IMG/VR virus record: IMGVR_UViG_3300045988_143597
Reading direction: 5' to 3' (one strand)
Length of the DNA: 44,654 bases
From: a virus
Under the pieces are notes generated by a model. That model searched no databases. It was given only the letters and a program-made list of their open reading frames with translations, and was not told the DNA's origin. Shown one piece after another: positions 20,976-31,487 of the stretch. The number at the start of each line of letters is the position of its first letter. Positions within the stretch are counted from its first letter, which is position 1. Made by a program: the position numbers and the translations under genes.

Positions 20976-21446
20976 CTAAGAAGATTTACCTTGCTTGAAC
21001 TTGTTAATATCGGTCGGATCTACCGCGTGCAGATTCGCACGCCGATTACGTGCCGACGCCACCTGCCCGTCAGGGCGCCGCGCATCAGCAGCATCGGCAT
21101 CAGCAAACTGCATACGCAGCCGAGCGCGATCTTCCATCGTCGCACCGAACTTAGCTACACGGAGACGCAACTCCTGCAGCACAGACGTGTCGCCACGGCC
21201 CCACAGTTCGGCGTGAAGAATTGCGGTATCCAACAGGAAAGACCAGTCAGTCGAACCGAAATGCTCCGACTGTGGAGCATCTGCCCACATCTTCCACCAG
21301 TTCAATGTCTCATCCGGCCAGGGAACAGACGTGGGCAGCTCCGGTTGGGAAGCTTCTTCAAACCGCAGAATCGTTGTGGGTGTCGGGTCAGCATGACGCC
21401 GCGCCCGTTTAGACGCTGGTTTAGGTGCGGGACCTCGTCCTGCCAT
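20976..21446 (-). CDS. terS: terminase small subunit
   Basis: 156 aa with a basic N-terminus (GRGPAPKPASKRARR), immediately upstream of TerL. Confidence 0.65.
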   Translation of the reverse strand: MAGRGPAPKPASKRARRHADPTPTTILRFEEASQPELPTSVPWPDETLNWWKMWADAPQSEHFGSTDWSFLLDTAILHAELWGRGDTSVLQELRLRVAKFGATMEDRARLRMQFADADAADARRPDGQVASARNRRANLHAVDPTDINKFKQGKSS

Positions 21447-21480
21447 GAGTGAACAACCTCCCTAACAAAATAGATACCGT

Positions 21481-21618
21481 TTAAGAAAGTCCCGAACTTG
21501 CGGGAGCTACTGCACGTGCGGTTTTCCGGGCACGTGCAGCGACGCGCTTCTGCGGACCCGTATATGTCACCTTCAGAGATCTACCTGATTGAGATTTATA
21601 CTCAAAACTGCGCTTCAT
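21481..21618 (-). CDS. small basic protein (45 aa), first gene of the late operon
   Basis: ATG 21618 preceded by GGAGGTGAG. Sequence MKRSFEYKSQSGRSLKVTYTGPQKRVAARARKTARAV... The N-terminal extension in the track ORF lacks an RBS. Confidence 0.45.
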   Translation of the reverse strand: MKRSFEYKSQSGRSLKVTYTGPQKRVAARARKTARAVAPASSGLS

Positions 21619-21657
21619 GACACCCTCACCTCCTCTCACTACGTGAAAACAGCGAAC

Positions 21658-21699
21658 AAAAAAACTCACCACACTGCAAACCAACCGCAATGTAGTGAG
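21658..21699 (-). terminator. strong intrinsic terminator upstream of the late operon
   Basis: Minus strand: CTCACTACATTGC-ggttggttt-GCAGTGTGGTGAG (13-bp stem with 2 G.U pairs) followed by T7. Confidence 0.7.
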
Positions 21700-21721
21700 T
21701 AAAAGTGTCCCCGGCTATAAC

Positions 21722-22090
21722 CTATTCAATATCGAACCCCATCAACTTCGCCAACATGTGACCATCGATATACTTATCTCCCAAAACTTTGCGCTTGACG
21801 CCTAGCTCTTTGAGAAAGCGCTCTTTATGTTTGCGAGTCTTAAAGCACACCGCAAACCAATATTCCGAATCTGTGGCATCACGATAGCGGTCGCGCTCGC
21901 GGCGCGCTCGGTCGCTAAAATCTTCCTGCAATGCTTCAAGCTCGCGGGCGCAATCTTCATTAAGGTTAGGCGGATCGCAATATTCTACATCTTTCAGTGG
22001 ATTATCAGGGTCAGCTTTGGCGAACCCTTTCGCGAAAGAGAAGCTTTCACCCTTGAGGTCGAAACCGCTGCCCTTAAACTCGAATGTCAT
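21722..22090 (-). CDS. hypothetical protein (partner of the PAPS-reductase-like gene)
   Basis: 122-aa ORF overlapping the upstream gene by 17 nt. AT-richer than the flanking sequence. Confidence 0.6.
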   Translation of the reverse strand: MTFEFKGSGFDLKGESFSFAKGFAKADPDNPLKDVEYCDPPNLNEDCARELEALQEDFSDRARRERDRYRDATDSEYWFAVCFKTRKHKERFLKELGVKRKVLGDKYIDGHMLAKLMGFDIE

Positions 22091-22814
22091 GACGAATCAA
22101 CTCCAATTCTGCTAGGGGGAACCACTTCAGCACCTGTTGGTAGTCATCTGGGGCGAATCTGCTCATAGGCTCAATGAATCTGTAGTCAACGCCATCGAAT
22201 GATCTGCCGAACCATTCATAATCAGGGGCTAGGTCAATGTTATGGTCTTTGATGTAGTCATAAACACTGCCTTGTAGCCAATCATAGATCGCAGAGACTT
22301 TATGGCCCTTAGTTTTCATAGCCCCATGCTTTTTGATACTAGCGCGGCGCACTAGGCTATCTGAGGCGCGGACTCCATCGGCTACCCATGTATCTTCATC
22401 CAGGCCTAGATCTGCGCGGATAAATTCCCACATCTCTTCAAATGTGGGTGTAGGTATGCCCGCGCGGAAAATTGACGGTAGATGTTCGGGTGCTTGGAAA
22501 ATATAATTATTCAACAAGCGGTAGAAGCCTGGGTGGGGGTATCGGTGGATCTTTGTTTCTAGCTTATCTTCGCAGTAGTCGAGGTATCGGCGCGAAAACT
22601 CTAGAGGTTGGCGGGGGTTAACTCCGGGCACCGGGTAGAGGTGGGCGAGTTTGATGGATATTCCCTCATTTTTTAGCGCTAACGCTGCTGCCAGTGCATC
22701 TTTTCCGCCGCTGAATGCCACGCATACAGGGCGGTTTTCTTCCTTGAGTTGTTGTCTTATTTCTGCACTTGGTGGCACATTTTCAATTGATTTGGTGAGT
22801 TTTATTGTTGTCAT
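22074..22814 (-). CDS. PAPS reductase-like PP-loop ATP pyrophosphatase family protein
   Basis: N-terminal PP-loop motif VAFSGGKDA. 246 aa, a size typical of the phage PAPS_reduct family. Confidence 0.65.
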   Translation of the reverse strand: MTTIKLTKSIENVPPSAEIRQQLKEENRPVCVAFSGGKDALAAALALKNEGISIKLAHLYPVPGVNPRQPLEFSRRYLDYCEDKLETKIHRYPHPGFYRLLNNYIFQAPEHLPSIFRAGIPTPTFEEMWEFIRADLGLDEDTWVADGVRASDSLVRRASIKKHGAMKTKGHKVSAIYDWLQGSVYDYIKDHNIDLAPDYEWFGRSFDGVDYRFIEPMSRFAPDDYQQVLKWFPLAELELIRHDIRV

Positions 22815-22944
22815 TGTGGGGGGCCTTTCTTTGTGTTGATCATAGCCAGTTTTTAGGTGCTGTCAAGGCATGGGGGTAGATGGGGTTAAAAACGCTGTGA
22901 CATGCATGTTTGTTGCCATAGCACCCGCTAATGGGGGTATTGTT

Positions 22945-22972
22945 TTGACTTGCCTTTCGCCTGGTGTAATGT
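22945..22972 (+). promoter_or_regulatory. candidate sigma-70-like promoter of the plus-strand island
   Basis: TTGACT (22945-22950), 16-nt spacer, TAATGT (22967-22972), about 45 nt upstream of ATG 23019. Confidence 0.35.
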
Positions 22973-23018
22973 AGTTGGTGTCAGCAAGAAAGACACACAC
23001 CGCAAAGGAAACAAAAAC

Positions 23019-23342
23019 ATGAACGCAAAGAAAAACACCGAACAGCACCTAGACAACATAATCTCCAACTTCTTCGACACAACCTACGAATACATTGACT
23101 ACATTCGCGGCGCCGAAACGCTCAACCTCAACAATGAAAATACCCCGCTAGGTACCCGCCTAGTCGCAAACCTAAAAAATTCATACCGGGAAGCTGCCGA
23201 GCATCTCACGCAGATCGAGATCAAAGCAATCATCAAAACTGTAACCTCGATCAATCGCCAAACCATGCTAGACAGCGAGCTCAATCTAACCAACGACCTC
23301 GACGCTTTCGCAAGCGACCTCATCGACCAAATCAACCGCTAA
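23019..23342 (+). CDS. hypothetical protein
   Basis: ATG 23019 preceded by AAGGAAA. 107 aa. The track ORF start at 22950 lacks an RBS. Confidence 0.6.
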   Translation: MNAKKNTEQHLDNIISNFFDTTYEYIDYIRGAETLNLNNENTPLGTRLVANLKNSYREAAEHLTQIEIKAIIKTVTSINRQTMLDSELNLTNDLDAFASDLIDQINR

Positions 23343-23365
23343 ACGCGCAGAAAGGATCTAAACAA

Positions 23366-23491
23366 TGAACACCCTCTACTACTACGAAACAGATGAGCTG
23401 TTCATTGAAATGGACGAAAACGGCAACTACATCAACTATTGGAAAGTTTCCACACTAGACGACCGCTACTACTTCACCACCGCAGCCTAAA
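23366..23491 (+). CDS. hypothetical small acidic protein (41 aa)
   Basis: Hand translation: MNTLYYYETDELFIEMDENGNYINYWKVSTLDDRYYFTTAA*. RBS GAAAGGA 8 nt upstream. Confidence 0.4.
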
Positions 23492-23553
23492 CCACCACCG
23501 AGCCGCTAGACGAGAGTTTTACCGGCACCCTACCGCCTCAAAGGATACCCGCC

Positions 23554-23856
23554 ATGGACAACGCCTACAGCGACTACAAATTAGCTGAACTGAAAGATCA
23601 CATCACCGAAGAATGGCAAGCACTCCAACTACTTGAGATAGAAGCTATGGACTTCCAAACCAGCATCAGCATAGTTGGCGACCCTGATCAACTCCGCAAC
23701 TCCTCCGACCTGTTCAACCTGGAACAAAACGAACAGCGCGCCACATATGTCGAACACATGCAAGCCAAACTAGAGCGCGCCATCGCCATCTGCCTGACCT
23801 TCGACAACATCACAGATGAACAAATCACCGCAGTACTCGACCGCCATATTGACTAG
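23554..23856 (+). CDS. hypothetical strongly acidic protein
   Basis: 100 aa. 21 D+E versus 7 K+R by direct count. RBS AAAGGA. Confidence 0.65.
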   Translation: MDNAYSDYKLAELKDHITEEWQALQLLEIEAMDFQTSISIVGDPDQLRNSSDLFNLEQNEQRATYVEHMQAKLERAIAICLTFDNITDEQITAVLDRHID

Positions 23857-23875
23857 AAAGCGCACACCTTAGCTC

Positions 23876-24004
23876 ATGAGCAGCGACATCACTACACCCT
23901 TCCTATCAACCGAAACCAAAGAAAAACTAGCAGACATGGCCATCTACGCGGCCACTATCATCGCGGGCGATATCATCGCCGCCCTGGAAGCACGAAACAT
24001 CTAG
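23876..24004 (+). CDS. possible small protein (42 aa)
   Basis: ATG-to-TAG ORF fills the gap between neighbours, but has no clear RBS. Confidence 0.25.
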   Translation: MSSDITTPFLSTETKEKLADMAIYAATIIAGDIIAALEARNI

Positions 24005-24018
24005 AAAGGATCACACCA

Positions 24019-24342
24019 ATGACCACCAACATCTTCAGCCTCCCCCGGTTGGAAACTCTCCATGTATTGGAAGAGTGGGAAACCGAACCTAACCGCCAAG
24101 GTATCGACCTTAAGCGCTGTGTGCTCGCAAACCACGACTGCACCGAAATGTTCGAACTCTATTACGGTGGCGATGATATGGGCTACGGACTCACCATCTG
24201 CGACATAGAACGACGAAACACCTACGACAGCGCCAACACGCAAGATTGGGGCTACCTCGACCGCCTATTCAACGGGCGCGATAACTGGCAGCAACTCATC
24301 ACATACATGGAAAACATGACACCATCCCGGCATGCTGCATAA
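24019..24342 (+). CDS. hypothetical acidic protein
   Basis: 107 aa. RBS GAAAGGA. Last gene of the plus-strand island. Confidence 0.65.
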   Translation: MTTNIFSLPRLETLHVLEEWETEPNRQGIDLKRCVLANHDCTEMFELYYGGDDMGYGLTICDIERRNTYDSANTQDWGYLDRLFNGRDNWQQLITYMENMTPSRHAA

Positions 24343-24355
24343 CACCACAAACTAA

Positions 24356-24383
24356 CCCCCCTCTAGGATCACCTGGAGGGGGG
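24356..24383. terminator. bidirectional hairpin terminator between convergent genes
   Basis: CCCCCCTC-taggatcacctg-GAGGGGGG (8-bp GC stem) followed by TTT on the plus strand. Confidence 0.6.
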
Positions 24384-24403
24384 TTTAAGCATGTCCACAA
24401 TCG

Positions 24404-24634
24404 CTACTGTCCACGCGACGCTATACGGTCGCGGGCTTTCTTAAGTGTAGATATTGTGACGCTACCAGCATTCGCAGTCTCTGCCCATGTAGCGCCTAAT
24501 TCCATCGCTCTCACCATGTTCGCATCTCTCTTTTCCATTATTGCGCTCCGCTGTCTATCCAAGTCAGCTATCCGCTCAGACAACAAAGCAACCTCGGATA
24601 ACGCCTCATCTTTAGATAAAAAATCACTAGACAT
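24404..24634 (-). CDS. hypothetical protein, last gene of the early operon
   Basis: ATG 24634 (MSSDFLSKDEA...) preceded by GAGAGG. 76 aa. Confidence 0.55.
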   Translation of the reverse strand: MSSDFLSKDEALSEVALLSERIADLDRQRSAIMEKRDANMVRAMELGATWAETANAGSVTISTLKKARDRIASRGQ

Positions 24635-24702
24635 AAAACATGACCTCTCAGAAACTCCAGACCCGCACATAACCCTAGCGGCAATGCCCTCGGCTTGACT
24701 CC

Positions 24703-24915
24703 GGGGGGTGGGGGTGGGGGTGTCCCCCCTGGGTGTTTTGGGTGTTGTGTTGTGTTGTTTGGTGTTGTGGGGGTGGGGCGGTGTTGTTGTGGGGGGTGGG
24801 GGGTGTTGTGTTGTGTTGTGGGTGTTGTGGGTGTTTTGGTGGGTTGTTTTGGTGTTTGTGTGGGTGGGTGGTTTGTGTGGGTGGTTTGTGTGGGTGGGTG
24901 GTTGTGGTGGTGTTT
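24703..24915. repeat. near-pure G/T (plus) = C/A (minus) low-complexity tract with G-quadruplex motifs and short internal repeats
   Basis: 24780-24915 has no A or C (136 nt). 24731-24778 likewise (48 nt). G-run sets lie at 24703-24733 and 24769-24803. Confidence 0.9.
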
Positions 24916-25228
24916 ATGTGGTGTGGGTGGTTGTTTTTAGTCCGGGGTGTGGTTCTGGGGGGTGTTTTGCTCTGTTGTGGTGTTGTTGGTGGCCCCATTG
25001 GATTTCTTTGCGGGTTTTTTGTTGGTGGCAGTTGGTGCAGACGGTTTGGAGGTTGTTTGTGGTGTGTGGGCCGCCTTGGCTGAGGGGTATTTTGTGGTCT
25101 ATTTGGTCTGGGGTGCCGGTGCAGCCGGGGTATTGGAGTTGGCAGGTGTGGTTGTCGCGGGTGTGGATGTGGTGTTTTTGTTGTTTGGTGAGGTGTGGGC
25201 GGTGTGTTTTGGTGTTGTAGCCTGGCAT
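24914..25228 (-). CDS. HNH endonuclease (compositionally re-coded)
   Basis: 104 aa. HIHTRDNHTCQLQYPGCTGTPDQIDHKIPLSQGGPHTTNNLQTVCTNCHQQKTRKE matches the C..C...DH..P...GG...NL...C..CH..K pattern. Confidence 0.75.
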   Translation of the reverse strand: MPGYNTKTHRPHLTKQQKHHIHTRDNHTCQLQYPGCTGTPDQIDHKIPLSQGGPHTTNNLQTVCTNCHQQKTRKEIQWGHQQHHNRAKHPPEPHPGLKTTTHTT

Positions 25229-25436
25229 GTTTTTGGTGGGGTTGTTGGGTGGGTTTATTGGGGTTTTTGTGTTGTTTGGCTATGGTTTGTTTGTTGTTTG
25301 GCTGGGTTTTGTTTGTTTTCTTTGGTGGGTTTTGGTGTGGTTTGTGGGTTGTTGTTTGGTGGGTTGTTGGTGATGTCTTTGAGGGTGTGTTTGGTGGTGG
25401 TTGTTTGGTGTCGGTGGTGGTGTGCTGGTTATGTTG

Positions 25437-25466
25437 CCTGTGCCTGTTCCTGTGCCTGTGCCTGTG
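25437..25466. repeat. hexanucleotide microsatellite (cctgtK)x5
   Basis: cctgtg cctgtt cctgtg cctgtg cctgtg, read directly. Confidence 0.85.
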
Positions 25467-25721
25467 GTGCAGGTTGTTGTGGTGGTGGTGTTGTTGTGGT
25501 GCAGGTTGTTGTGGTGGTGTTGTTTGCCATTGGTGTTTCCTTTGGTGTTGGTGTGGTGTGTGTTTGTAGGGGGTGTGCTGGGTGTGTGGGTGAAGCTCGG
25601 TGGTGTGGGGGTTGTGGTGGTGTGCTGGTTGTGTGGTGGCACTGTTGTGCTGTGGTGTGTGTTTGGTGCGGTGGGGTGCCCCGGTTGTGGGGGTGGGGCG
25701 GTGTTGTGGTGGGGTGCCCCG

Positions 25722-25759
25722 GTGCGTACATACCCCCCGGCGTGCGCATACCCCCCCGG
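25722..25759. repeat. tandem 19-bp repeat within an array of CCCCGG-terminated motifs
   Basis: gtgcgtacataccccccgg / cgtgcgcatacccccccgg. CCCCGG also ends at 25684, 25722 and 25782. Confidence 0.8.
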
Positions 25760-25826
25760 TATGTTTAATGCCCCTCCCCCGGTGTGTTGTGGTGGGGTGG
25801 GGCAATAGATTTACTTACTAAACGCA

Positions 25827-25855
25827 ATTATAGCATGTGTTTGCTCAGTGGTCTA
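25827..25855 (-). promoter_or_regulatory. candidate promoter reading into the C/A-rich region
   Basis: Minus strand: TAGACC (25850-25855), 17-nt spacer, TATAAT (25827-25832). Confidence 0.35.
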
Positions 25856-26420
25856 GTTGATGCTGGTCTGTGAGGTATGCGAGGACGTTGGGGAGTTGGT
25901 AGTAGTTGCGTCGGTTTGTTTTGATGCTGGTGATGTGTCCCCGGTAGGTCCAGTTGTAGAGCTGTTTCGGGGTAACGGTGTAGCCATAGCGCTTCAACTT
26001 GATAAGGATGCTGTGTTGCGTTTCCCACTTGGGTGTTGTTGGGGGTTGGGTGTTGGGGAGTTGGTTGGTGAGTTCTTCGGTAATGGTGGGCAGGTCGGTG
26101 TTTGTGAGGTCTAGTGTTTCGGGGTTGGTGGTGATGGTGAGGGCGTGGTGGTCTAGCCAGTGTAGTAGTGCGGTGGGGTTGGTTTGTGGGGGTTGGGTTG
26201 CGAGGATGTCGGCGAGGGCGTGGGTGAGTTCTGTGAGTTTGATTGTTGTTTCTTGTTCTATGGTGAGCCAGTGGATGTTGGTGGGGGGTTTGGGGCCTGT
26301 TGGGGTGTGGGTGGGGATTTCTGGTGGGGGTGTTTTGGTGGTTTTGAGTTGTTTAAGGGTTGTGTAGTGGGTTCGGAGTTGGTTGGTGTGTTGATAGATG
26401 TGGGTGTAGTTAGTGATCAT
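25845..26420 (-). CDS. DNA-binding protein with C-terminal excisionase/MerR-type HTH (compositionally re-coded)
   Basis: 191 aa. C-terminus YTVTPKQLYNWTYRGHITSIKTNRRNYYQLPNVLAYL fits the HTH_17-like pattern. Thr/Pro/Gln/His/Asn-rich N-terminal part. Confidence 0.65.
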   Translation of the reverse strand: MITNYTHIYQHTNQLRTHYTTLKQLKTTKTPPPEIPTHTPTGPKPPTNIHWLTIEQETTIKLTELTHALADILATQPPQTNPTALLHWLDHHALTITTNPETLDLTNTDLPTITEELTNQLPNTQPPTTPKWETQHSILIKLKRYGYTVTPKQLYNWTYRGHITSIKTNRRNYYQLPNVLAYLTDQHQLDH

Positions 26421-26477
26421 GCCTTTGCCCTGGTTTGTTTTGGTGTGGGGTGTGTTGGCTAGTATGCGCCGATACTC

Positions 26478-26714
26478 TTAGTCTTCATGTTGCCAGGTGG
26501 CCAGGGGGATATCTCTTTCTATCCCGTCGTATGCTGTCGACTGTGCGATACGTGCGGCGAGTTGGAGTTTCGAGGCGACTTCATCAGCTAGTGCAGCGCT
26601 GAGGCGTATTTCCAGCGGCGTATCGCCCCCACTGTGGGTTTGCAAAATAACTGGGTGGGTGTCATCGGCGCGGAGAACGACGCTGATTCCCGCCTCTGTG
26701 AGTTTTTCAAACAT
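26478..26714 (-). CDS. hypothetical protein
   Basis: ATG 26714 (MFEKLTEAGISVVLR...) preceded by AGGAG. 78 aa. The upstream extension in the track ORF is low-complexity. Confidence 0.55.
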   Translation of the reverse strand: MFEKLTEAGISVVLRADDTHPVILQTHSGGDTPLEIRLSAALADEVASKLQLAARIAQSTAYDGIERDIPLATWQHED

Positions 26715-26725
26715 CGTGCTGGCTC

Positions 26726-26890
26726 CTAGTCTGTGTGTAGTTGGATGGTGTTTTTGGTGTGCCGTAGGGCGTCGCACCAGCCGTGCCAGTAGTCTGCGGT
26801 TTGCTGTGGCGGCTGTGCGTATCCTTGTTGGAGCATGTCGGTGATCCACGCCAGCACGGGCGCGGGGTCATACCAGTAGGTGGTGTGCAT
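26726..26890 (-). CDS. hypothetical small protein (54 aa, below the track cutoff)
   Basis: Hand translation: MHTTYWYDPAPVLAWITDMLQQGYAQPPQQTADYWHGWCDALRHTKNTIQLHTD*. AGGAG RBS. Fills the gap after dut. Confidence 0.45.
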   Translation of the reverse strand: MHTTYWYDPAPVLAWITDMLQQGYAQPPQQTADYWHGWCDALRHTKNTIQLHTD

Positions 26891-26894
26891 GGGT

Positions 26895-27314
26895 TTAGGC
26901 TCCTGTTGATCCGTGGCCGTTGTTGCCGCGTTGTGTGTCTTCGAACTCTGTGACGGGCTGCCAATCGACCTCTACAGTGTGGTGGATGATGAGCTGGGCG
27001 ATCCGGTCCCCGCGTTGGATGGTGTAGGGCAGGTGCCCTAGGTTGATGAGATTGACGAAGATTTCACCGGTGTAGCCGGGGTCGATCACGCCGGGGGCGT
27101 TGGTGACGGTGATGCGGTGTTTTGCAGCCAGGCCGCTGCGGGGGCAGACGTAACCAACGGTGTTAGGCGGTAGGCCGATGTGTAGGCCGGTGGGGATTAG
27201 TGCATGTTGGCCGGGGGCTAGTGTTTTAGCTGCTGTGGCTGTGAGGTCGTAGCCCGCGTCCGTGGGGTGAGCTTTCACAGGTGCGGGGCCGGTGTGGTTA
27301 ATAGGGGTGGGCAT
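26895..27314 (-). CDS. dut: dUTP diphosphatase
   Basis: Motifs AGYDL, PRSGLA, GVIDPGYTGEI, RIAQL and C-terminal RGNNGHGSTG. Confidence 0.9.
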   Translation of the reverse strand: MPTPINHTGPAPVKAHPTDAGYDLTATAAKTLAPGQHALIPTGLHIGLPPNTVGYVCPRSGLAAKHRITVTNAPGVIDPGYTGEIFVNLINLGHLPYTIQRGDRIAQLIIHHTVEVDWQPVTEFEDTQRGNNGHGSTGA

Positions 27315-27318
27315 GGAT

Positions 27319-27621
27319 TTAGCTCTCTTCCTTTTGCCGGTGGGTGGTTGCTTTGGCTATGTATTCCGCCATCCAGATAGGCATTTTGATTCTCAATTTG
27401 TACTCGGCTACATGGCTTTGAGGTGCGTCCGTCTTGTTAAAGTCCACCCAGATTTCGAGAACTGCATGTTCGTCGTAAAACTCCAAGTCTGCGTCATACG
27501 ACCCCATGCAGGTGAGGCCGAGGGTTGCGACCTCACCGTAGCCGGGGTAAGGCATGACGCTGTAGTCAAGGCCATAGTGATCTGAAAGGGTACGCAGGTT
27601 ATTGTTTTCTGAAACGTTCAT
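27319..27621 (-). CDS. hypothetical protein
   Basis: 100-aa ORF, tightly packed in the early operon. Confidence 0.6.
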   Translation of the reverse strand: MNVSENNNLRTLSDHYGLDYSVMPYPGYGEVATLGLTCMGSYDADLEFYDEHAVLEIWVDFNKTDAPQSHVAEYKLRIKMPIWMAEYIAKATTHRQKEES

Positions 27622-27623
27622 GG

Positions 27624-27998
27624 TTAGCCTCCTAGTAGTTCGCGCTGCTCGTCGCGGAGTTCAGCGCGGAGGGCCTTAAGCCCTAATAGCTTGTCTGCCC
27701 GTGCTTGTTCGTTGGGGTCGCTTAAGTCATCGATCATCATGTCAATGCGGTCGAGCACCCAGCCTATGGTGCGAGCTTCCACCATTTCAGTGTTTGGCGG
27801 TTGCGGTGTGGACACAGCGAGATCCGCAGCATTGACACCCATTACCCGGCAATTTTCTTTAACGCCCTCCCAGTAGAACCAATCGTGTTCGCCTCGCGCT
27901 GATTCTTTCCCTTTGACAGCGTCGCCCGTGCTGTGCTTAATGATGTCGAGCACATCCCCGTACCGGATCCAAGGGTTAGATGTAGGCGTGCTCACCAC
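27624..27998 (-). CDS. hypothetical protein
   Basis: 124-aa ORF. 7-nt overlap with the upstream gene. Confidence 0.6.
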   Translation of the reverse strand: MVSTPTSNPWIRYGDVLDIIKHSTGDAVKGKESARGEHDWFYWEGVKENCRVMGVNAADLAVSTPQPPNTEMVEARTIGWVLDRIDMMIDDLSDPNEQARADKLLGLKALRAELRDEQRELLGG

Positions 27999-28414
27999 TC
28001 CCCCTCTTCCTTCTCCCCTAGGTTGCAGTAGATTTCATCTATGTAGCTAGCGAAGTCTTTAAGGCAGTCGGCTAGGCTGATGGAGATGTACATGGTGCCG
28101 CTGCTGAAAAACAGCTTGCCATCGTAAGTCCTGACAAAGAGGTACATGTTTTCTTTTCGTGGGCACATGATGGGCAGGGTTTTCATGTACACTCCGCGAT
28201 CGGCGACACTAAGCTCAAAGTAATCGCGCCAGACCTCAAGTTGCGTATCGGTAGCCACAACGCTCACGCTTGTGCCGGGGGCTTCGAATAGGAGTGTGGC
28301 GACATAGTTTTCGTCGATGTATTCGATGTCATAGAAACTACTTGACTCAGAGATCTCGTAGCTAAGTTGGAAGTTTCCAAAATCGACGCGGCTGGGTTGG
28401 AGTCGGTCTTGCAT
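27992..28414 (-). CDS. hypothetical protein
   Basis: 140-aa ORF, 3 nt after the RusA stop. Confidence 0.6.
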   Translation of the reverse strand: MQDRLQPSRVDFGNFQLSYEISESSSFYDIEYIDENYVATLLFEAPGTSVSVVATDTQLEVWRDYFELSVADRGVYMKTLPIMCPRKENMYLFVRTYDGKLFFSSGTMYISISLADCLKDFASYIDEIYCNLGEKEEGEW

Positions 28415-28843: not shown

Positions 28844-31369
28844 TTAAGCTGCGTCGGTTGTTTCGTCCAACAGGTCGAACAGGGACGGGGTTTCGACTTT
28901 TTGCTCTTCTGCCTGTAGGTATGCGACTGCGTCGAGGAAGTAACCGTGGTTGAGTTCCACTCCCCTACCCCTACGGCCCATACGCAAAGCGGTTAGTGGG
29001 ACGGTGCCGATTCCTCCGAAGGGGTCGAATACTAGGTCGCCTTCATTGGAGTAGCGGCGGATTAGACGCTCAACAATGTCGTATTGCAGGGGGCAAATGT
29101 GATTCTGCACATTGCGCTTCGACTGCTCACTGTTGAGGGTGCGCATCCGGTTGATGTCGTGCCACACGTCGTTTTGCCAGCTTCCGGGTGCGAGCGCCAT
29201 AAACGTAGACGGCAATGCACCGCGATAGTCGAGGGTTTCACCAATCTTCACATGGGTCTCGTGGTCGTAGATTTGCTGCAACGACTGCTTTGTGAACATC
29301 TTGCCCAGTTGGTCGTGGGGGAGTTCTGCGAGTTCATCGACGGTGAGGGGCCGGTTACCGGATGAGCGCCAGAATGCGTGCGCGTCGGTTTGCCACCGTG
29401 CGCGACTGTATTCTTCCTTGCTTTTCGTCACGGGTACGTCGGCGTATCCGCGTGAACGGTCTGTTTGTGGTTTATGGAAGATCAGAATATATTCCGGTGA
29501 CCCTACACCCATTTTTGAGCCGTCTTTGCACTGCTCCGACCAGCCTAGGCGGTAGGTTTGGTTATTTTCCCTCACCACATCGGTGGTGACGGTGATCATG
29601 CCCATGTAGTCAAACCCGTGTTTGATGCCGTGTTGGATTGCTTCACTGTGGAAGGGTGAGACGGTGGGGATTCCCGCGCCGGTGGTGTTACCGAAGTTGA
29701 TGCGGTCTTTCACATGGCAGGCGTAGATGCGGCCGGGGTTGAGGATTCGGAGCAGTTGTGGCGTGAGGTAGTCCATCTGTGCCCAAAAATGCTCATTGTT
29801 ATCGGTGTGACCGAAATCGTTGTAATTCGGGGTGTACTCGTAGTGGTTGGCAAAGGGGATGGAAGTCACGATTAGGTCGACGCTGTTGTCTTCCATCGTT
29901 TGTGTTTCTTTCACACAATCGTTGTTTGCGAAGACGAAACGGTTGCCGCTTATTTCGATGCGTTCTACTCCGATGTCTCGCTGGAGCGCTTCAATGATGT
30001 TTTTGGGGTTGAGACCATAGTCTTTGATGATGCCGGTCATGTTGTGGGTCAGCTCCTCATGCATGTGCCATTTTTCTTGCACGGTTTTCACAACGGAGGT
30101 TTCCGTGTTGGCGTAGATCAGGTGGGTGTAGGTGTCGGTTTTTTGACCAAAGCGGTGAATGCGGTGAACTGCTTGGATGATGTCGTTGAATTTGTATGTG
30201 ATCCCTAGGAAGATGGCGGTGTTTGCTTGCTGGAGGTTCATGCCAGACCCGAGCATGATGGGTTTACCGATCAGCGCATAGGTTTCCTTATTTCTCCATT
30301 GCTCTAGGAGTTCTTCTACCTGGTCGGGGGTTTGGCTTCCACGGATTGAGGAGAATGTGAGGCCCGCGTCTTTGAGGTGCTTTTCGATGGCGTCTTGTTC
30401 TGCGTTGAGGTCACACCACAATACGATTTGTTTACCGGGGGATTGTGCCCGGTGCTGGCTGATGAGTTCCATCATTTTGTTGCAGCGGGCGTTAATGCTG
30501 CGGCGTTTTTCTGCTGCTGATTCTTTTAGGCCCATTTGTGTGTCTCGGAAAATGTAGCCTTGCCCATTGCGGTCTGTTTCATCGGTGGTGATGTCAACGT
30601 CCACTTTGTGGAACTCAATGTGGTTAGGTGGCAGGGTGTATTCTGTCGCGTCGTGTCCAAGATCTGCGGGGGATTGAACAAAAGCGGCCCATGTGTTGAG
30701 CCAAAGAAAGAACTCTTTTTCCTTGTGGGGGTAGAGGGTGAGGTTGTTTGCTTTGGTTGAATCTCGTTGGAAGAACCGTGTGAGGGCGTTGCCGGTATCC
30801 ATGATCCCTAAGAATCCGGCGTAGTGAATCAGTTCCTTGTACCGGTTGGGGGATGGGGTGGCGGTGGCCACATACCGGTATGTGACGGTGTCGAAGAGTT
30901 GTAGAAACTCTTGATAAGTTTTTGACCCGTAGGAGCGCAAAACGGATGCTTCATCTAGGGTTACGGCGGTGAACTCGGTGGGGTCGAGTTTGCCGTCTCG
31001 CACGGATTCATAGTTGGTTACGTAGATTCCGTCGCCGTCGAGTTCATCGGTGCGGCGCACAAACCGGGTGTCAACTCCTAGCATGGCGGCGTCGTGCTTG
31101 ATCTCAATACGCACACCGAGGGGGCAGATGATGAGGCCTTTGCCGCCGCCGTGGTGTTTGAGCGTGAGGCGTAGTGTCTCGATCTGCATGACGGATTTTC
31201 CGAGGCCGAATGCTGCAAAGATGGCGCGCCGTCCTCCCGCTACTGCCCATTGAACGATGTCTTTTTGGTGGGGTTTGAGTAGCGGGTTGATCTCGCTTTG
31301 TTGGATCTGGTGGCCATAGTGTTTCTGAAAGTTGACTTTGGCCTGAATAAACTCGTCATAGTTGTTCAT
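28844..31369 (-). CDS. SNF2-family helicase fused to a beta-class N4/N6 DNA methyltransferase
   Basis: ATG 31369 preceded by AGGAG. Helicase motifs AAFGLGKS, LDEAS and QAVHRIHRFGQ. MTase motifs VDLIVTSIPF (IV-like) and LVFDPFGGIGT (I). Confidence 0.8.
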   Translation of the reverse strand: MNNYDEFIQAKVNFQKHYGHQIQQSEINPLLKPHQKDIVQWAVAGGRRAIFAAFGLGKSVMQIETLRLTLKHHGGGKGLIICPLGVRIEIKHDAAMLGVDTRFVRRTDELDGDGIYVTNYESVRDGKLDPTEFTAVTLDEASVLRSYGSKTYQEFLQLFDTVTYRYVATATPSPNRYKELIHYAGFLGIMDTGNALTRFFQRDSTKANNLTLYPHKEKEFFLWLNTWAAFVQSPADLGHDATEYTLPPNHIEFHKVDVDITTDETDRNGQGYIFRDTQMGLKESAAEKRRSINARCNKMMELISQHRAQSPGKQIVLWCDLNAEQDAIEKHLKDAGLTFSSIRGSQTPDQVEELLEQWRNKETYALIGKPIMLGSGMNLQQANTAIFLGITYKFNDIIQAVHRIHRFGQKTDTYTHLIYANTETSVVKTVQEKWHMHEELTHNMTGIIKDYGLNPKNIIEALQRDIGVERIEISGNRFVFANNDCVKETQTMEDNSVDLIVTSIPFANHYEYTPNYNDFGHTDNNEHFWAQMDYLTPQLLRILNPGRIYACHVKDRINFGNTTGAGIPTVSPFHSEAIQHGIKHGFDYMGMITVTTDVVRENNQTYRLGWSEQCKDGSKMGVGSPEYILIFHKPQTDRSRGYADVPVTKSKEEYSRARWQTDAHAFWRSSGNRPLTVDELAELPHDQLGKMFTKQSLQQIYDHETHVKIGETLDYRGALPSTFMALAPGSWQNDVWHDINRMRTLNSEQSKRNVQNHICPLQYDIVERLIRRYSNEGDLVFDPFGGIGTVPLTALRMGRRGRGVELNHGYFLDAVAYLQAEEQKVETPSLFDLLDETTDAA

Positions 31370-31487
31370 GGGGTTAGCTCCTGCGGTCGATGTCACTTTG
31401 GGTTAGGTGGCAGGTAATTCGGGTTGCTCGGCAATATTTTGGTGTTATAATGTTCATTGGTAGTTTCCTTTCTGTGGTTAGAAAGAA

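What the first reader, a model, noticed from the sequence alone, without database searches (positions are those of the whole stretch)
24703..24915. 213-nt almost pure G/T tract with multiple G-quadruplex motifs downstream of the HNH gene
Between the HNH stop (24914-24916) and the start region of the last early gene, the plus strand has 136 consecutive nt (24780-24915) made only of G and T. Another 48 nt (24731-24778) are the same, separated by a single C at 24779. Two four-run G motifs fit the canonical quadruplex pattern: 24703-24733 (G6-T-G5-T-G5-N10-G3) and 24769-24803 (G5-T-G4-N12-G6-T-G6). Internal repeats are present. The 18-mer ggtgttgtgttgtgttgt occurs at 24741 and 24802. tttgtgtgggtgg occurs at 24855, 24872 and 24885. 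The 24-mer gttgtgggggtggggcggtgttgt at 24764-24787 recurs at 25684-25707. In the direction of early transcription this is a ~185-nt C/A-only RNA, ending in a G6/C6 hairpin (24703-24729). Ideas (inference): a G4 roadblock or replication/recombination signal; an unstructured spacer or translation enhancer for the downstream gene; or a C-rich RNA sponge for G-rich Shine-Dalgarno-like sequences, since C-rich sRNA loops are used that way in Gram-positive bacteria.
Basis: partly seen in the sequence, partly recalled or inferred. Interest (0 to 1): 0.7.

Follow-up and report, generated by a model that had tools for sequence, protein, structure and literature searches.

The report
Two-letter spacer beside phage cos site
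The G/T-only stretch is real and lies at the predicted right end of a temperate phage genome from the human mouth, next to the site where the DNA is cut for packaging; it is the tip of a 1.8-kb region, working genes included, written almost entirely in two letters per strand, and no force known to do this in a phage has been shown here.

Summary
Window 24703-24915 is 117 G, 89 T, 7 C and no A, with a 136-nt pure G/T run (chance about 1e-36). It is only the tip of a ~1.8-kb island (24703-26470) whose minus, sense strand is almost only C/A. The island carries two intact genes recoded into C/A codons: an HNH endonuclease and a MerR-like DNA-binding protein.

Homology to Rhodococcus phage ReT1v-1 and Gordonia phages Apricot, BritBrat and Gibbous, deposited as linear genomes, puts the cohesive-end site (cos) 3-20 bp beyond the tract. 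The ~180-nt C/A-only stretch is a lineage-specific expansion of the short C/A-rich spacer between HNH and cos.

Four independent relatives keep the alphabet and the length (200-212 nt), while the sequence changes by A<->C swaps and indels.

Best reading (inference, ~0.35): it is one of three ~190-nt G/U-free, unfoldable, untranslatable, C-rich RNA spacers in a promoter-sORF-HNH-cos unit. These would act as Rho-loading and termination zones.

Rivals are a strand-specific mutational by-product, a DNA-level packaging role, leading-end defence evasion, and G4. The RNA-sponge and translation-enhancer ideas are unsupported.

The parts
24703..24915 (+). The reported tract: 213 nt, G/T apart from a C6 run and one C
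24700..24733 (.). cos-flanking motif. Minus sense: CCCAGGGGGGACACCCCCACCCCCACCCCCCGG. Plus sense: G6-T-G5-T-G5-TGT-C6-T-G3. It is near-identical in the three relatives that span it (L119 has one C>T change, CCCCTC). A related motif occurs in Apricot, BritBrat, Gibbous and ReT1v-1 just inside the right end of their linear records.
24684..24699 (.). Predicted cos cleavage zone. GGGCAT-3' (plus-strand atgccc, 24684-24689) aligns with the ...GGCAT-3' right ends of Apricot and BritBrat. The ReT1v-1 end aligns about 14 columns earlier, near 24697.
   Evidence: inference by homology, ends not measured for this phage
24657..24668 (.). Element conserved on the far (left-end) side of cos: GTGCGGGTCTGG in minus sense. 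Apricot and ReT1v-1 have GTACGGGTCTGG 17-31 nt inside their left ends.
24734..24913 (-). Spacer 3, the core of the finding: 180 nt of C/A-only sense RNA with one G. It has no start codon, no stop codon and no SD-like word. It is degenerate tandem repeats (periods about 10-29).
24914..25228 (-). HNH endonuclease gene, 104 aa. 98% of third codon positions are A/C and 65% of codons are purely A/C. Catalytic and zinc-binding residues are kept.
25229..25428 (-). Spacer 2: 200 nt, 95% C/A in sense, between the sORF stop and the HNH start
25429..25530 (-). Small ORF of 33 aa (MANNTTTTTCTTTT...QAQAT) with an AAAGGA-N7-ATG start. It is conserved in four relatives (33-41 aa). Indels inside it are in frame. 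The stop codon is lost in L081.
25531..25714 (-). Spacer 1: the C/A-rich part of the leader (90% C/A)
25715..25822 (-). Structured 5' part of the leader, with G/C hairpins and repeats (GGGGCACCCC x2, CCGGGGGGTATG.. x2). This is the only part of the leader with normal composition.
25827..25855 (-). Promoter-like site TAGACC-17-TG.TATAAT (10/12, extended -10). It reads towards HNH and cos and is identical in the relatives.
25845..26420 (-). ORF191: a real, folded protein (AF2 pLDDT 93.8) with a C-terminal MerR-like winged helix. It matches phrog_12885. The N-terminal two thirds are recoded to C/A; the C-terminal third is not.
26421..26470 (-). C/A-rich 5' UTR of ORF191; the outer edge of the island
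24404..24670 (-). Its probable start is the second ATG, at about 24634. It lies beyond the predicted cos and is absent from L081, L086 and L119.
24356..24383 (.). Bidirectional terminator-like hairpin CCCCCCTCTAGG..CCTGGAGGGGGG + TTT, between ORF88 and the converging plus-strand genes

Best explanation
IDENTITY (well supported, about 0.8). The window is a circularly permuted temperate siphovirus of an actinobacterium from the human mouth.

The tract is the last ~230 bp before the predicted cohesive-end site (cos). It has two pieces:
- a cos-flanking motif shared by this phage group: a G-run followed by three C-runs in sense orientation;
- a lineage-specific expansion, to ~180 nt, of the short C/A-rich spacer that related phages carry between the HNH gene and cos. 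The expansion arose by duplication and slippage.

The tract is also the extreme end of a 1.1-kb transcription unit: promoter 25855-25827, structured leader, small ORF, HNH, cos. In this unit every untranslated stretch is a ~180-200-nt C/A-only spacer. The unit itself sits in a 1.8-kb island with a C/A sense strand.

MECHANISM (inferred, about 0.35). The tract works as RNA.
- A transcript with no G and no U cannot base-pair with itself.
- It contains no start codon and no Shine-Dalgarno word, and it lies after a stop codon, so it emerges naked.
- It is 55% C.
- This is the ideal loading substrate for the termination factor Rho.

The three spacers would then be successive Rho-dependent termination zones. 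They would keep a strong, constitutive-looking promoter from expressing HNH and from reading across cos into TerS/TerL unless termination is suppressed. This is the logic of lambda pR'-tR'-Q. The DNA-binding ORF191, encoded immediately upstream of the promoter, is the candidate regulator.

On this reading the plus-strand G4 potential is a by-product of the alphabet.
For: SHOWN
- Genome layout: integrase, repressor, Ant, Erf, O-like initiator, SSB, SNF2-methylase, dUTPase, ORF191, HNH, TerS, TerL, portal, tape measure, endolysin.
- cos placement. The window's 24760-24600 segment has its only significant match in the whole rotated ReT1v-1 genome exactly across that phage's end junction (E = 0.005). 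It matches the Apricot junction at E = 1e-8. The alignment puts the GGCAT-3' ends of Apricot and BritBrat on window GGGCAT. Gibbous has the same type of motif and end.
- Gene order. In L081, L086 and L119 the order is HNH, tract, ~270-300 nt, TerS.
- Conservation in four independent relatives. Spacer length is 212/207/200/204 nt and leader length is 594/595/587/594 nt. Composition is unchanged (G only in the hairpin plus 1-2 others; at most one T).
- Polymorphic sites in the tract: 19 A<->C against 3 transitions. The leader has 22 against 27 (Fisher p = 0.0015).
- The only minus-sense 78-nt windows in the genome with C >= 40% and G <= 8% lie inside the island.
- Spacer 3 has 0 ATG/GTG/TTG, 0 stop codons and 0 GGAG/AGGA.
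- Folding gives no internal structure in the spacer, and the z-score is 0.
- The promoter-like site with extended -10 is conserved.
- A small ORF with an SD sits between two spacers.
- ORF191 and HNH are 99.4-99.5% identical between the window and L081, like the late genes (98.3%). The adjacent early genes are 89-92% identical.
- ORF191 is a confidently folded protein with a MerR-like winged helix.
- A ~100-nt C/A-rich tail after HNH is also seen in a Streptomyces prophage.

ESTABLISHED KNOWLEDGE
- Rho loads on C-rich, G-poor, unstructured, untranslated RNA (reviewed in PMC12360218).
- Lambda late genes are read from a constitutive promoter through terminators and across cos under Q control (own knowledge).
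Against: - Nothing here measures transcription or termination.
- In M. tuberculosis, the Rut sites of full-length Rho show no significant C>G bias or YC enrichment. They are mainly less structured. Only the truncated enzyme behaves like E. coli Rho (PMC13650167). C-richness may therefore matter less in an actinobacterial host.
- Rho does not require absence of U, so the strict two-letter alphabet is more than this model needs.
- The same bias covers translated sequence (HNH third positions 98% A/C), which a rut model does not require.
- In the window phage itself, a 3.2-kb insertion with converging genes and a terminator already separates HNH from TerS. Insulating the late genes cannot be the tract's role there.
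- ORF191 shows no structural match to known Q proteins.
- The hairpin is not followed by a U-tract.
- The background point divergence among the four relatives is only 0.5-2%. The evidence for selection on the alphabet therefore rests on few events, and some of those may be slippage.
Confidence: 0.35

Rival explanations
1. By-product of a strand-specific mutational drive, with no function of its own.

The plus strand near the right genome end is repeatedly exposed or damaged as single-stranded DNA. Deamination converts the amino bases to keto bases (C to U/T, A to hypoxanthine/G). Guanine oxidation interconverts G and T.

A G/T-only strand is then an absorbing state. Genes survive by keeping only essential non-C/A codons. 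Non-coding DNA goes to purity and then expands by slippage.
For: - The bias affects coding and non-coding DNA alike and is strongest at synonymous third positions (HNH 98%).
- Proteins are shifted to T/P/H/Q/N/K, as in vertebrate mitochondrial proteins under strand asymmetry (PMC2779903).
- Polymorphisms in HNH (6 of 8 sites) and in the tract (19 of 22) are G<->T on the plus strand. This is the class expected from 8-oxoG chemistry, and it is significantly unlike the spectrum in the neighbouring dUTPase gene (p = 1e-5).
- In ReT1v-1 the only C/A-rich part of the whole genome is the terminal 480 nt next to cos. Cornie shows a rise towards the right end.
- The tract is made of degenerate tandem repeats, and a 31-nt block has been copied between leader and tract.
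Against: - Elsewhere in the genome the A/C third-position bias follows the coding strand, not one DNA strand. The plus-strand genes 22950-24342 are also A/C-rich in sense. This argues against a replication-type cause.
- Transcription-associated deamination of the non-template strand predicts the opposite sign (own knowledge).
- The usual 5'-3' end resection would expose the other strand.
- Boundaries are sharp, and a 300-bp stretch inside the island (25715-26030, including synonymous sites of ORF191) is not biased.
- Synonymous G is retained in the (CAGGCA)n part of the small ORF.
- Lengths of spacer and leader are conserved despite many indels. For the window-L081 leader indels, P(|net| <= 1) = 0.055.
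- The bias is absent in Gibbous and reversed in JacoRen57, which have related ends.
Confidence: 0.25
2. DNA-level role in packaging.

The strand-asymmetric, repeat-rich DNA just upstream of cos is part of the signal or mechanics of packaging termination. It would be an extended cosQ-like region: binding sites for TerS, HNH or ORF191, or DNA that slows the translocating terminase. Alternatively it matters because it is the last DNA packaged and lies in the portal/tail channel.
For: - The tract abuts the predicted cos, and the adjoining motif is conserved across several actinophage clusters at a fixed short distance from the end.
- Purity is highest in the 200 bp nearest the end and is significantly stricter than in the leader.
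- Length is conserved.
- HNH-terminase cos phages place HNH next to cos (own knowledge of HK97 gp74).
- The C-runs before the cut and GGGTCTGG after it form an imperfect inverted repeat around the cut zone (sequence).
Against: - Sequence inside the spacer is not conserved. About 12% of sites are polymorphic, and 10-21-nt indels occur among phages with nearly identical HNH and TerL.
- There is no helical (~10.5 bp) periodicity above shuffled controls.
- Related phages with the same kind of cos manage with 27-45 nt.
- Two further C/A-only spacers lie 0.5-1.1 kb from cos, beyond any usual cos element.
- L086 and L119 have a different TerS but the same tract.
Confidence: 0.15
3. Leading-end stealth.

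By analogy with lambda, the right end is packaged last and ejected first, so the island is the first DNA in the cell. A duplex written G/T on one strand and C/A on the other cannot contain:
- any palindrome, so no type II restriction sites;
- any word mixing A with G or C with T on one strand, for example the type I-E PAM AAG/CTT.

The entering end would therefore offer no targets to restriction enzymes or to end-primed CRISPR spacer acquisition.
For: - Position at the predicted right end.
- The logical consequences of the alphabet follow from the sequence itself.
- In T7-like phages, the motif content of the first-injected region alone decides sensitivity to a type I R-M system (PMC12455610).
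- Free ends of injected DNA have been described as favoured substrates for type II CRISPR adaptation (PMC13575424).
Against: - Siphovirus DNA entry is fast, and the rest of the genome has normal composition, so a 0.2-1.8-kb clean end gives little obvious protection.
- Coding parts of the island still contain mixed words.
- The host and its defence systems are unknown.
- The order of ejection is assumed, not shown.
Confidence: 0.08
4. G-quadruplex element on the plus (template) strand. It would act as a roadblock or as a signal for transcription, replication or recombination.
For: - Canonical G4 patterns at 24703-24733, 24769-24803 and 24862-24898.
- G4Hunter windows of 1.5-2.4, with a tract mean of 1.32 against -0.02 for the genome.
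- Short-read assemblies break at the island edges.
Against: - The only strictly conserved G-runs belong to the cos-flanking motif. That motif includes a complementary C6 run that competes as a hairpin.
- The runs of the second motif change between relatives.
- G4 formation does not need absence of A and C, so it does not explain the alphabet.
- G4-scoring windows are spread over the whole island as a consequence of composition.
Confidence: 0.07
5. A stable C-rich regulatory RNA (a sponge for G-rich Shine-Dalgarno sequences), or a translation-enhancing leader for the next gene.
For: - The RNA would be unstructured and C-rich.
- CA-rich sequences can enhance translation in E. coli (own knowledge).
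Against: - No Rfam family matches.
- There is no dedicated promoter or minus-sense terminator bounding the tract.
- The predicted cos lies between the tract and the next gene, and that gene is replaced by other DNA or by TerS in relatives.
- Without U the RNA cannot form a perfect CCUCC anti-SD.
Confidence: 0.03

Closest known systems
cos regions of HNH-dependent cos siphoviruses (HK97 gp74 type). Specifically the right ends of Gordonia phages Apricot, BritBrat and Gibbous and of Rhodococcus phage ReT1v-1.
   Same: - HNH is the last gene before cos, and TerS/TerL follow.
- A G-run plus C-run motif sits about 7-20 bp inside the right end.
- The end reads ...GGCAT-3'.
- GT(A/G)CGGGTCTGG lies on the other side of the cut.
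- The spacer after HNH is C/A-rich, and in several of these phages HNH itself is too (sense A+C 0.66-0.76).
   Different: - The spacer is 180 nt here, not 27-45 nt, and it is 99% two-letter.
- The bias extends over 1.8 kb and two genes.
- The window phage has a 3.2-kb accessory insertion between cos and TerS.
- The ends of this phage have not been measured.
Rho-dependent terminators and rut sites (lambda tR1; the tna operon leader, where a short leader peptide is followed by a rut site and a ~200-nt spacer)
   Same: - Untranslated, unstructured, C-rich, G-poor RNA directly after a stop codon.
- A small ORF precedes one of the spacers.
- Spacer lengths are about 200 nt.
   Different: - Far purer and longer than any described rut site.
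- U is excluded as well as G.
- Termination has not been demonstrated.
- Actinobacterial Rho may not favour C>G RNA (PMC13650167).
Lambda late control region (Q gene, constitutive pR', terminator tR', late genes read across cos)
   Same: A DNA-binding protein gene lies immediately upstream of a strong-looking promoter. A long non-coding leader follows, then genes needed for packaging, and the unit is oriented to read across cos.
   Different: - No sequence or fold similarity of ORF191 to Q proteins.
- No intrinsic terminator.
- The regulatory link is conjecture.
Strand asymmetry of vertebrate mitochondrial DNA (G/T-rich heavy strand; proteins enriched in amino acids with CA-rich codons)
   Same: - One strand is keto-rich, and the sense strand is C/A-rich.
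- Third positions are most affected.
- Protein composition is dragged towards T, P, H, Q, N and K.
   Different: - Local (1.8 kb) rather than genome-wide, and far more extreme.
- No known single-strand exposure mechanism here.
- Elsewhere in this genome the bias follows the coding strand.
Leading (first-injected) regions of T7-like and T5 phages
   Same: A terminal genome segment with special sequence organisation that meets host defences first.
   Different: - Those regions work through encoded anti-defence genes, or through absence of single motifs.
- Their entry is stepwise or transcription-driven.
- None is a two-letter sequence.

Membership tests
cos region of HNH-dependent cos actinophages | HNH gene immediately upstream, with terminase small and large subunit genes downstream | tested here: met
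   HNH matches Pfam at 4e-12. TerS and TerL are identified. In L081, L086 and L119, TerS starts ~270-300 nt after the tract. In the window a 3.2-kb insertion intervenes.
cos region of HNH-dependent cos actinophages | Sequence homology to DNA spanning the physical ends of characterised relatives | tested here: met
   The best and only significant hit in the rotated ReT1v-1 genome spans the end junction (E = 0.005). The Apricot junction matches at E = 1e-8. A multiple alignment includes Apricot, BritBrat and ReT1v-1. Gibbous has the same motif and end.
cos region of HNH-dependent cos actinophages | Virion DNA ends (cohesive overhangs) map to this site | not testable with these tools
   Only assemblies are available. 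The window is circularly permuted.
Rho utilisation site / Rho-dependent terminator | At least ~80 nt of C-rich, G-poor RNA | tested here: met
   Sense composition of the HNH-stop-to-cos spacer is C 117, A 87, G 8, U 0. All 78-nt windows with C >= 40% and G <= 8% lie in the island.
Rho utilisation site / Rho-dependent terminator | Unstructured and untranslated RNA | tested here: met
   The spacer has no pairing in the MFE fold, and the z-score is 0. It contains no start codon and no SD word, and it begins right after the HNH stop codon.
Rho utilisation site / Rho-dependent terminator | Rho-dependent transcript 3' ends | not testable with these tools
   No transcriptome or biochemical data are available.
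Rho utilisation site / Rho-dependent terminator | Fits the substrate preference of the host's own Rho | tested here: inconclusive
   The host is unknown but actinobacterial. In M. tuberculosis, full-length Rho Rut sites lack C>G bias but are less structured (PMC13650167).
G-quadruplex-forming sequence | Four G-runs of at least 3 with short loops; G4Hunter at least 1.5 | tested here: met
G-quadruplex-forming sequence | G-runs conserved in relatives beyond what composition gives | tested here: inconclusive
   The runs of the cos motif are invariant. The runs of motif 2 change (G4 becomes GTTGTGGG; G6TG6 becomes G8TG5 or C6AC7).
G-quadruplex-forming sequence | Folding into G4 in vitro or in vivo | not testable with these tools
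   Needs CD, ThT or polymerase-stop assays.
Intrinsic (hairpin + U-tract) terminator | GC hairpin followed by a U run on the transcribed (minus) sense | tested here: not met
   The scan finds only weak plus-strand candidates at 24715-24731. The minus-sense hairpin is followed by GGAGUCAAGCC.
Known non-coding RNA family (Rfam) | Covariance-model match | tested here: not met
   No match with E <= 1 in 21000-28000 on either strand. There are no tRNA genes.
Lambda Q-type late antitermination unit | Regulator homologous to a Q protein, with a terminator downstream of a constitutive promoter | tested here: not met
   The anatomy is similar. However, the ORF191 fold matches only MerR-like winged helices (GlnR, BldC, excisionases), with Foldseek probability up to 0.97 but E about 0.5, and no Q protein.
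Chi-like recombination hotspot | Host-specific oriented octamer on the 3'-ended strand as seen from the entering end | not testable with these tools
   The host and its Chi sequence are unknown. The G/T-rich strand is the 5'-ended strand at the predicted right end, which is the wrong orientation for an E. coli-type GT-rich Chi (inference).

The most novel reading that the evidence does not exclude
A temperate phage maintains the terminal 1.8 kb of its genome in an almost two-letter-per-strand code. The terminal ~230 bp are 99% pure, and two functional protein genes are recoded to C/A codons while keeping their folds.

On this reading a dedicated, end-linked force causes it. Two candidates remain open:
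- selection for a leading end that carries no palindromes and no A+G or C+T words, and is therefore invisible to restriction enzymes and to end-primed CRISPR adaptation;
- an unrecognised, cos-associated single-strand deamination/oxidation process acting on one strand.

Either would be a new principle of local phage genome composition.
Probability: 0.15. Interest if true: 0.85.

Novelty: new variant of a known kind. Interest (0 to 1): 0.6.

Why it matters
- It turns an odd low-complexity tract into an anatomically placed element: the DNA between the HNH packaging nuclease gene and cos. It also identifies a cos-flanking motif shared by several actinophage clusters.
- It exposes an extreme natural case of gene recoding. 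Two proteins are written almost wholly in A/C codons and still fold. That tests how far strand composition can push protein sequence.
- If the Rho reading is right, it would be the cleanest natural Rho-loading sequence known. It would also be a lambda-like late switch in an actinobacterial phage.
- If the mutational or stealth readings are right, it would show a new end-linked force shaping phage genomes.
- A practical point: the island breaks short-read assemblies, so relatives are under-represented and mis-split in viral catalogues.

Tried and rejected
- **Replication-strand skew.** The cumulative GC-skew minimum falls at about 24.6 kb. Rejected because the third-position A/C bias follows the coding strand in plus-strand genes too.
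- **Helical phasing of the tract.** No period near 10-10.5 bp exceeds shuffled controls in any of four relatives.
- **Known RNA or tRNA.** None found.
- **Read-through fusion.** HNH, the tract and ORF88 are in one frame in the window. Relatives have tract lengths that are not multiples of three, and they lack ORF88, so this is coincidence.
- **The exact 20-mer C5AC5AC6GG as a cos marker.** It occurs in 15 IMG/VR contigs, mostly in unrelated contexts. The motif alone is not diagnostic, and the cos claim rests on the longer alignment.
- **Close cultured relatives.** No megablast match in INPHARED. ORF191 gave no tblastn hit in phage records.
- **Host assignment.** The conserved 20-mer found nothing in GTDB representative genomes. 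The closest TerL there is 59% identical, in a Brevibacterium prophage. The host stays unknown, although contigs come from a human oral metagenome.
- **Function of ORF191 by fold search.** Only the MerR-like winged helix is recognised.
- **Pfam scan of 25 family members.** Uninformative.
- **Universality of the right-end C/A bias.** It is present in ReT1v-1, BritBrat, Cornie and (weakly) Apricot, absent in Gibbous, and reversed in JacoRen57.
- **Literature.** Five full-text searches found no description of such a tract.
Full report
**1. The observation**

The sequence is as described.
- 24703-24915 holds 117 G, 89 T, 7 C and no A.
- 24780-24915 is a 136-nt run of G and T only. 24730-24778 is another, and they are separated by one C at 24779.
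- The two G4-pattern matches, the 18-mer pair, the 13-mer triple and the 24-mer copy at 25684 are all present. That copy is really 31 nt at 97% identity.
- A run of 136 two-letter bases is expected about 1e-36 times in a window of this size.
- The tract is found, with its own differences, in three further independent assemblies. It is therefore biological and not an artefact.

**2. The tract is the tip of a larger island**

Fine-scale composition shows a G/T-rich plus strand from 24703 to about 26470. By part, the G+T fraction is:

| Part | G+T fraction |
|---|---|
| Spacer after HNH | 0.99 |
| HNH gene | 0.84 |
| Next spacer | 0.95 |
| Small ORF | 0.82 |
| Rest of the leader | 0.90 |
| Structured 5' leader | 0.53 |
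| C-terminal third of ORF191 | 0.69 |
| N-terminal two thirds of ORF191 | 0.84 |
| Beyond the island, high-coordinate side | 0.64 |
| Beyond the island, low-coordinate side | 0.43 |

All genes here are on the minus strand, so their mRNAs are C/A-rich.
- In HNH, 98% of third codon positions are A or C, and 65% of codons use only A and C.
- HNH is still a bona fide HNH protein (Pfam 4e-12). Its Cys, Asp-His, Asn and C-terminal PEPHPG motifs are conserved against actinophage homologues.
- ORF191 matches phrog_12885 (2e-27) and has 34 distant homologues.
- ORF191 gives an AlphaFold model with mean pLDDT 93.8. Its C-terminal domain resembles MerR-like winged helices such as GlnR, BldC and excisionases.

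Two working genes have therefore been rewritten in a nearly two-letter codon set. No other locus among 117 fetched phage and prophage loci has a 150-nt window above 0.85, apart from copies of this same lineage.

**3. Genome context**

The window is a circularly permuted temperate siphovirus. Its genes, in order, are integrase, repressor, anti-repressor, Erf, O-like initiator, SSB, SNF2-helicase/methylase, dUTPase, ORF191, HNH, TerS, TerL, portal, capsid, a 2057-aa tape measure and endolysin.
- TerL is about 60% identical to those of Rhodococcus, Gordonia and Mycobacterium phages.
- Contigs carrying the identical integrase come from a human oral metagenome. One of them shows the prophage integrated next to host genes.
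- No representative genome holds a close relative, so the host species is unknown.

**4. The tract abuts the cohesive-end site**

In the relatives L081, L086 and L119 the order is HNH, tract, about 270-300 nt, TerS. This is the classical HNH-cos-terminase arrangement. The window phage carries an extra 3.2 kb of accessory genes between them.

Cultured relatives deposited as linear genomes show what lies at the ends. In Rhodococcus phage ReT1v-1 and in Gordonia phages Apricot, BritBrat and Gibbous:
- HNH is the last gene.
- A short C/A-rich spacer follows (27-45 nt).
- Then comes a G-run with two or three C-runs, for example Apricot CCCCCAGGGGGTATGCCCCCCACCCCCACCCCCCGG.
- The end of the record follows about 18 nt later in the Gordonia phages, reading ...GGCAT-3', and 7 nt later in ReT1v-1.
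- The left end of Apricot and ReT1v-1 carries GTACGGGTCTGG.

The window reads, in minus sense, CAGGGGGGACACCCCCACCCCCACCCCCCGGAGTCAAGCCGAGGGCAT|TGCCGCTAGGGTTATGTGCGGGTCTGGAG. It aligns with all of these.

In a search of the whole rotated ReT1v-1 genome, the only significant match of this window segment falls exactly across the end junction (E = 0.005). The Apricot junction matches at E = 1e-8.

Three conclusions follow:
- The cut is predicted at about 24684-24700.
- The 'last early gene' lies on the other side of cos.

By analogy with lambda (own knowledge), this is the end that is packaged last and ejected first.

**5. How the tract evolves**

Among the four relatives:
- The HNH-to-cos spacer is 212, 207, 200 and 204 nt long.
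- The promoter-to-HNH leader is 594, 595, 587 and 594 nt long.
- These lengths hold despite many indels of 1-21 nt. For the window-L081 leader, the chance of so small a net change with random signs is 0.055. This is suggestive only.
- Composition is constant. G occurs only in the hairpin plus one or two others, and there is at most one T.
- Polymorphic sites in the tract are 19 A<->C against 3 transitions.
- In HNH they are 6 against 1.
- In the leader they are 22 against 27.
- In ORF191 they are 6 against 9.
- The tract differs significantly from the leader (p = 0.0015). Tract plus HNH differ from the neighbouring dUTPase gene (p = 1e-5).

The spacer is about five times more polymorphic than the genes, and it consists of degenerate tandem repeats. 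The only G inside the window's spacer came in with a 31-nt block copied from the leader.

So the sequence drifts quickly within the two letters, by slippage, conversion and A<->C change, while alphabet and length hold.

One caution applies. Background divergence among these relatives is only 0.5-2%. The number of independent events is therefore small.

**6. A transcription unit made of C/A-only spacers**

A conserved promoter-like site with an extended -10 (TAGACC-17-TG.TATAAT) lies at 25855-25827. It points towards HNH and cos. Downstream of it lie, in order:
- a structured, G/C-hairpin-rich 5' segment of about 110 nt;
- a C/A-rich stretch;
- a small ORF of 33-41 aa with an AAAGGA-N7-ATG start and in-frame length variation;
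- a 200-nt spacer that is 95% C/A;
- HNH;
- the 180-nt spacer that is 99% C/A;
- the cos motif.

The only 78-nt windows in the genome with at least 40% C and at most 8% G, in minus sense, lie in this island. The tract has no start codon, no stop codon and no SD-like word. It does not pair with itself.

ORF191 and HNH are as conserved between the window and L081 (99.4-99.5%) as the late genes (98.3%). The adjacent early genes are at 89-92%. These two genes therefore travel with the packaging module.

**7. Most likely mechanism, and its limits**

I favour, at about 0.35, an RNA-level role. Each spacer is naked, unfoldable, C-rich RNA emerging after a stop codon, which is the textbook substrate for Rho (review PMC12360218). 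Three such zones behind a strong promoter would give tight, conditional termination before HNH and before cos/TerS. The layout resembles lambda pR'-tR'-Q, with ORF191 encoded just upstream as a candidate regulator.

All of this is inference, and there are real objections:
- Rut sites of full-length M. tuberculosis Rho lack C>G bias (PMC13650167).
- Rho does not require exclusion of U.
- Coding sequence shares the bias.
- In the window phage an insertion already uncouples HNH from TerS.
- ORF191 does not resemble Q.

**8. Rivals**

- *Mutational absorbing state (0.25).* Deamination turns the amino bases (A, C) into keto bases (G, T), and oxidised guanine interconverts G and T. This fits three things:
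  - the synonymous-site saturation;
  - the G<->T polymorphisms;
  - the fact that in ReT1v-1 the only C/A-rich part of the genome is the terminal 480 nt, much as strand asymmetry reshapes mitochondrial proteins (PMC2779903).

  Against it stand:
  - the coding-strand rule elsewhere in the genome;
  - the wrong sign for known exposure mechanisms;
  - the sharp boundaries and the unbiased 300 bp inside the island;
  - the conserved lengths;
  - the absence or reversal of the bias in Gibbous and JacoRen57.
- *DNA-level packaging role (0.15).* Position and end-proximal purity support it. Poor sequence conservation, lack of helical phasing and the short spacers of relatives count against it.
- *Leading-end stealth (0.08).* A G/T-over-C/A duplex cannot contain palindromes or A+G / C+T words. 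This is attractive in view of PMC12455610 and PMC13575424, but it is untested.
- *G4 function (0.07).* The pattern criteria are met. G4 does not explain the alphabet, and the conserved runs belong to the cos motif.
- *sRNA sponge or translation enhancer (0.03).* Nothing found here supports it.

**9. Novelty**

The cos-flanking motif and the HNH-cos layout are members of a known kind. What I found no description of, in five full-text searches, is:
- the 180-nt two-letter spacer;
- its two sister spacers;
- the recoding of two genes.

I file the finding as a new variant of a known kind. There is a modest chance that the underlying force is something new.

Noticed in passing
window 25429-25530 (minus): Small ORF (33 aa, MANNTTTTTCTTTTPPPQQPAPQAQAQEQAQAT) with a good SD/ATG. 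It is conserved in four relatives at 33-41 aa, and indels inside it are in frame. L081 has lost the stop codon (TAA>CAA), which extends it to 83 aa. It retains G at synonymous sites in a (CAGGCA)n repeat (plus-strand TGCCTG x5.3 at 25435-25466).
   Followed up: partly
window 25845-26420 (minus): ORF191 changes codon style inside the gene. The N-terminal two thirds are almost pure A/C codons. The C-terminal winged-helix third has ordinary synonymous G/T. This suggests a recombination joint near 26030. Several distant homologues are also T/H/P/N-rich.
   Followed up: partly
L002 (ends at window 24714); L085 (ends near window 26306); L001 (ends at window 24221): IMG/VR short-read contigs of close relatives stop at the two edges of the island. 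L002 stops inside the G6TG5 run and L085 stops inside ORF191. The island therefore seems to break Illumina assemblies and to split these phage genomes in catalogues.
   Followed up: partly
window 21539-24622: 3.2 kb of accessory DNA lies between the predicted cos and TerS. It includes a PAPS-reductase-like gene (22074-22814, phrog_2302) behind a near-consensus promoter-like site (TTGACA-16-TATGAT, 22866-22839, minus). It also holds a block of plus-strand genes (22950-24342) that converge on ORF88. L081 keeps only a 143-nt remnant of it (23755-23897).
   Followed up: partly
window 21512-21537: Two copies of the palindrome GCACGTGC, 18 nt apart, lie about 70-90 nt upstream of TerS. The region is shared with L081 but not with L086 or L119, which have a different TerS. 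It may be a TerS recognition (cosB-like) element.
   Followed up: no
window 24657-24733: The C-runs before the predicted cut and CGGGTCTGG after it form an imperfect inverted repeat about 35 bp apart. A two-fold symmetric nicking site would be expected to look like this.
   Followed up: no
window 24404-25228: HNH, the tract and ORF88 share one reading frame, with only the HNH TAA between them. This is not conserved in relatives, so it is probably coincidence.
   Followed up: yes
window 28844-31396 (minus): A single 850-aa protein fuses an SNF2-type helicase to an N6/N4 DNA methylase.
   Followed up: no
L144 (Mycobacterium phage JacoRen57, last 60 nt): The right end carries the G-run triple (G8..G8TG6) on the top strand, and the terminal 200 nt are G/T-rich. 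This is the opposite orientation to the C-run motif of the other relatives.
   Followed up: no
L148, L149: The identical integrase is found on a 44.7-kb contig from a human oral metagenome. It is also found on a contig where the prophage is integrated next to CopD/CtaG, ArsR-type regulator and cadmium-resistance genes. No tRNA gene is present in the window.
   Followed up: partly
L083 2900-3600: An unrelated, higher-GC viral contig has a ~700-nt C/A-rich (about 0.8) block covering an HNH gene and its small neighbours. Composition switches abruptly to normal afterwards.
   Followed up: no
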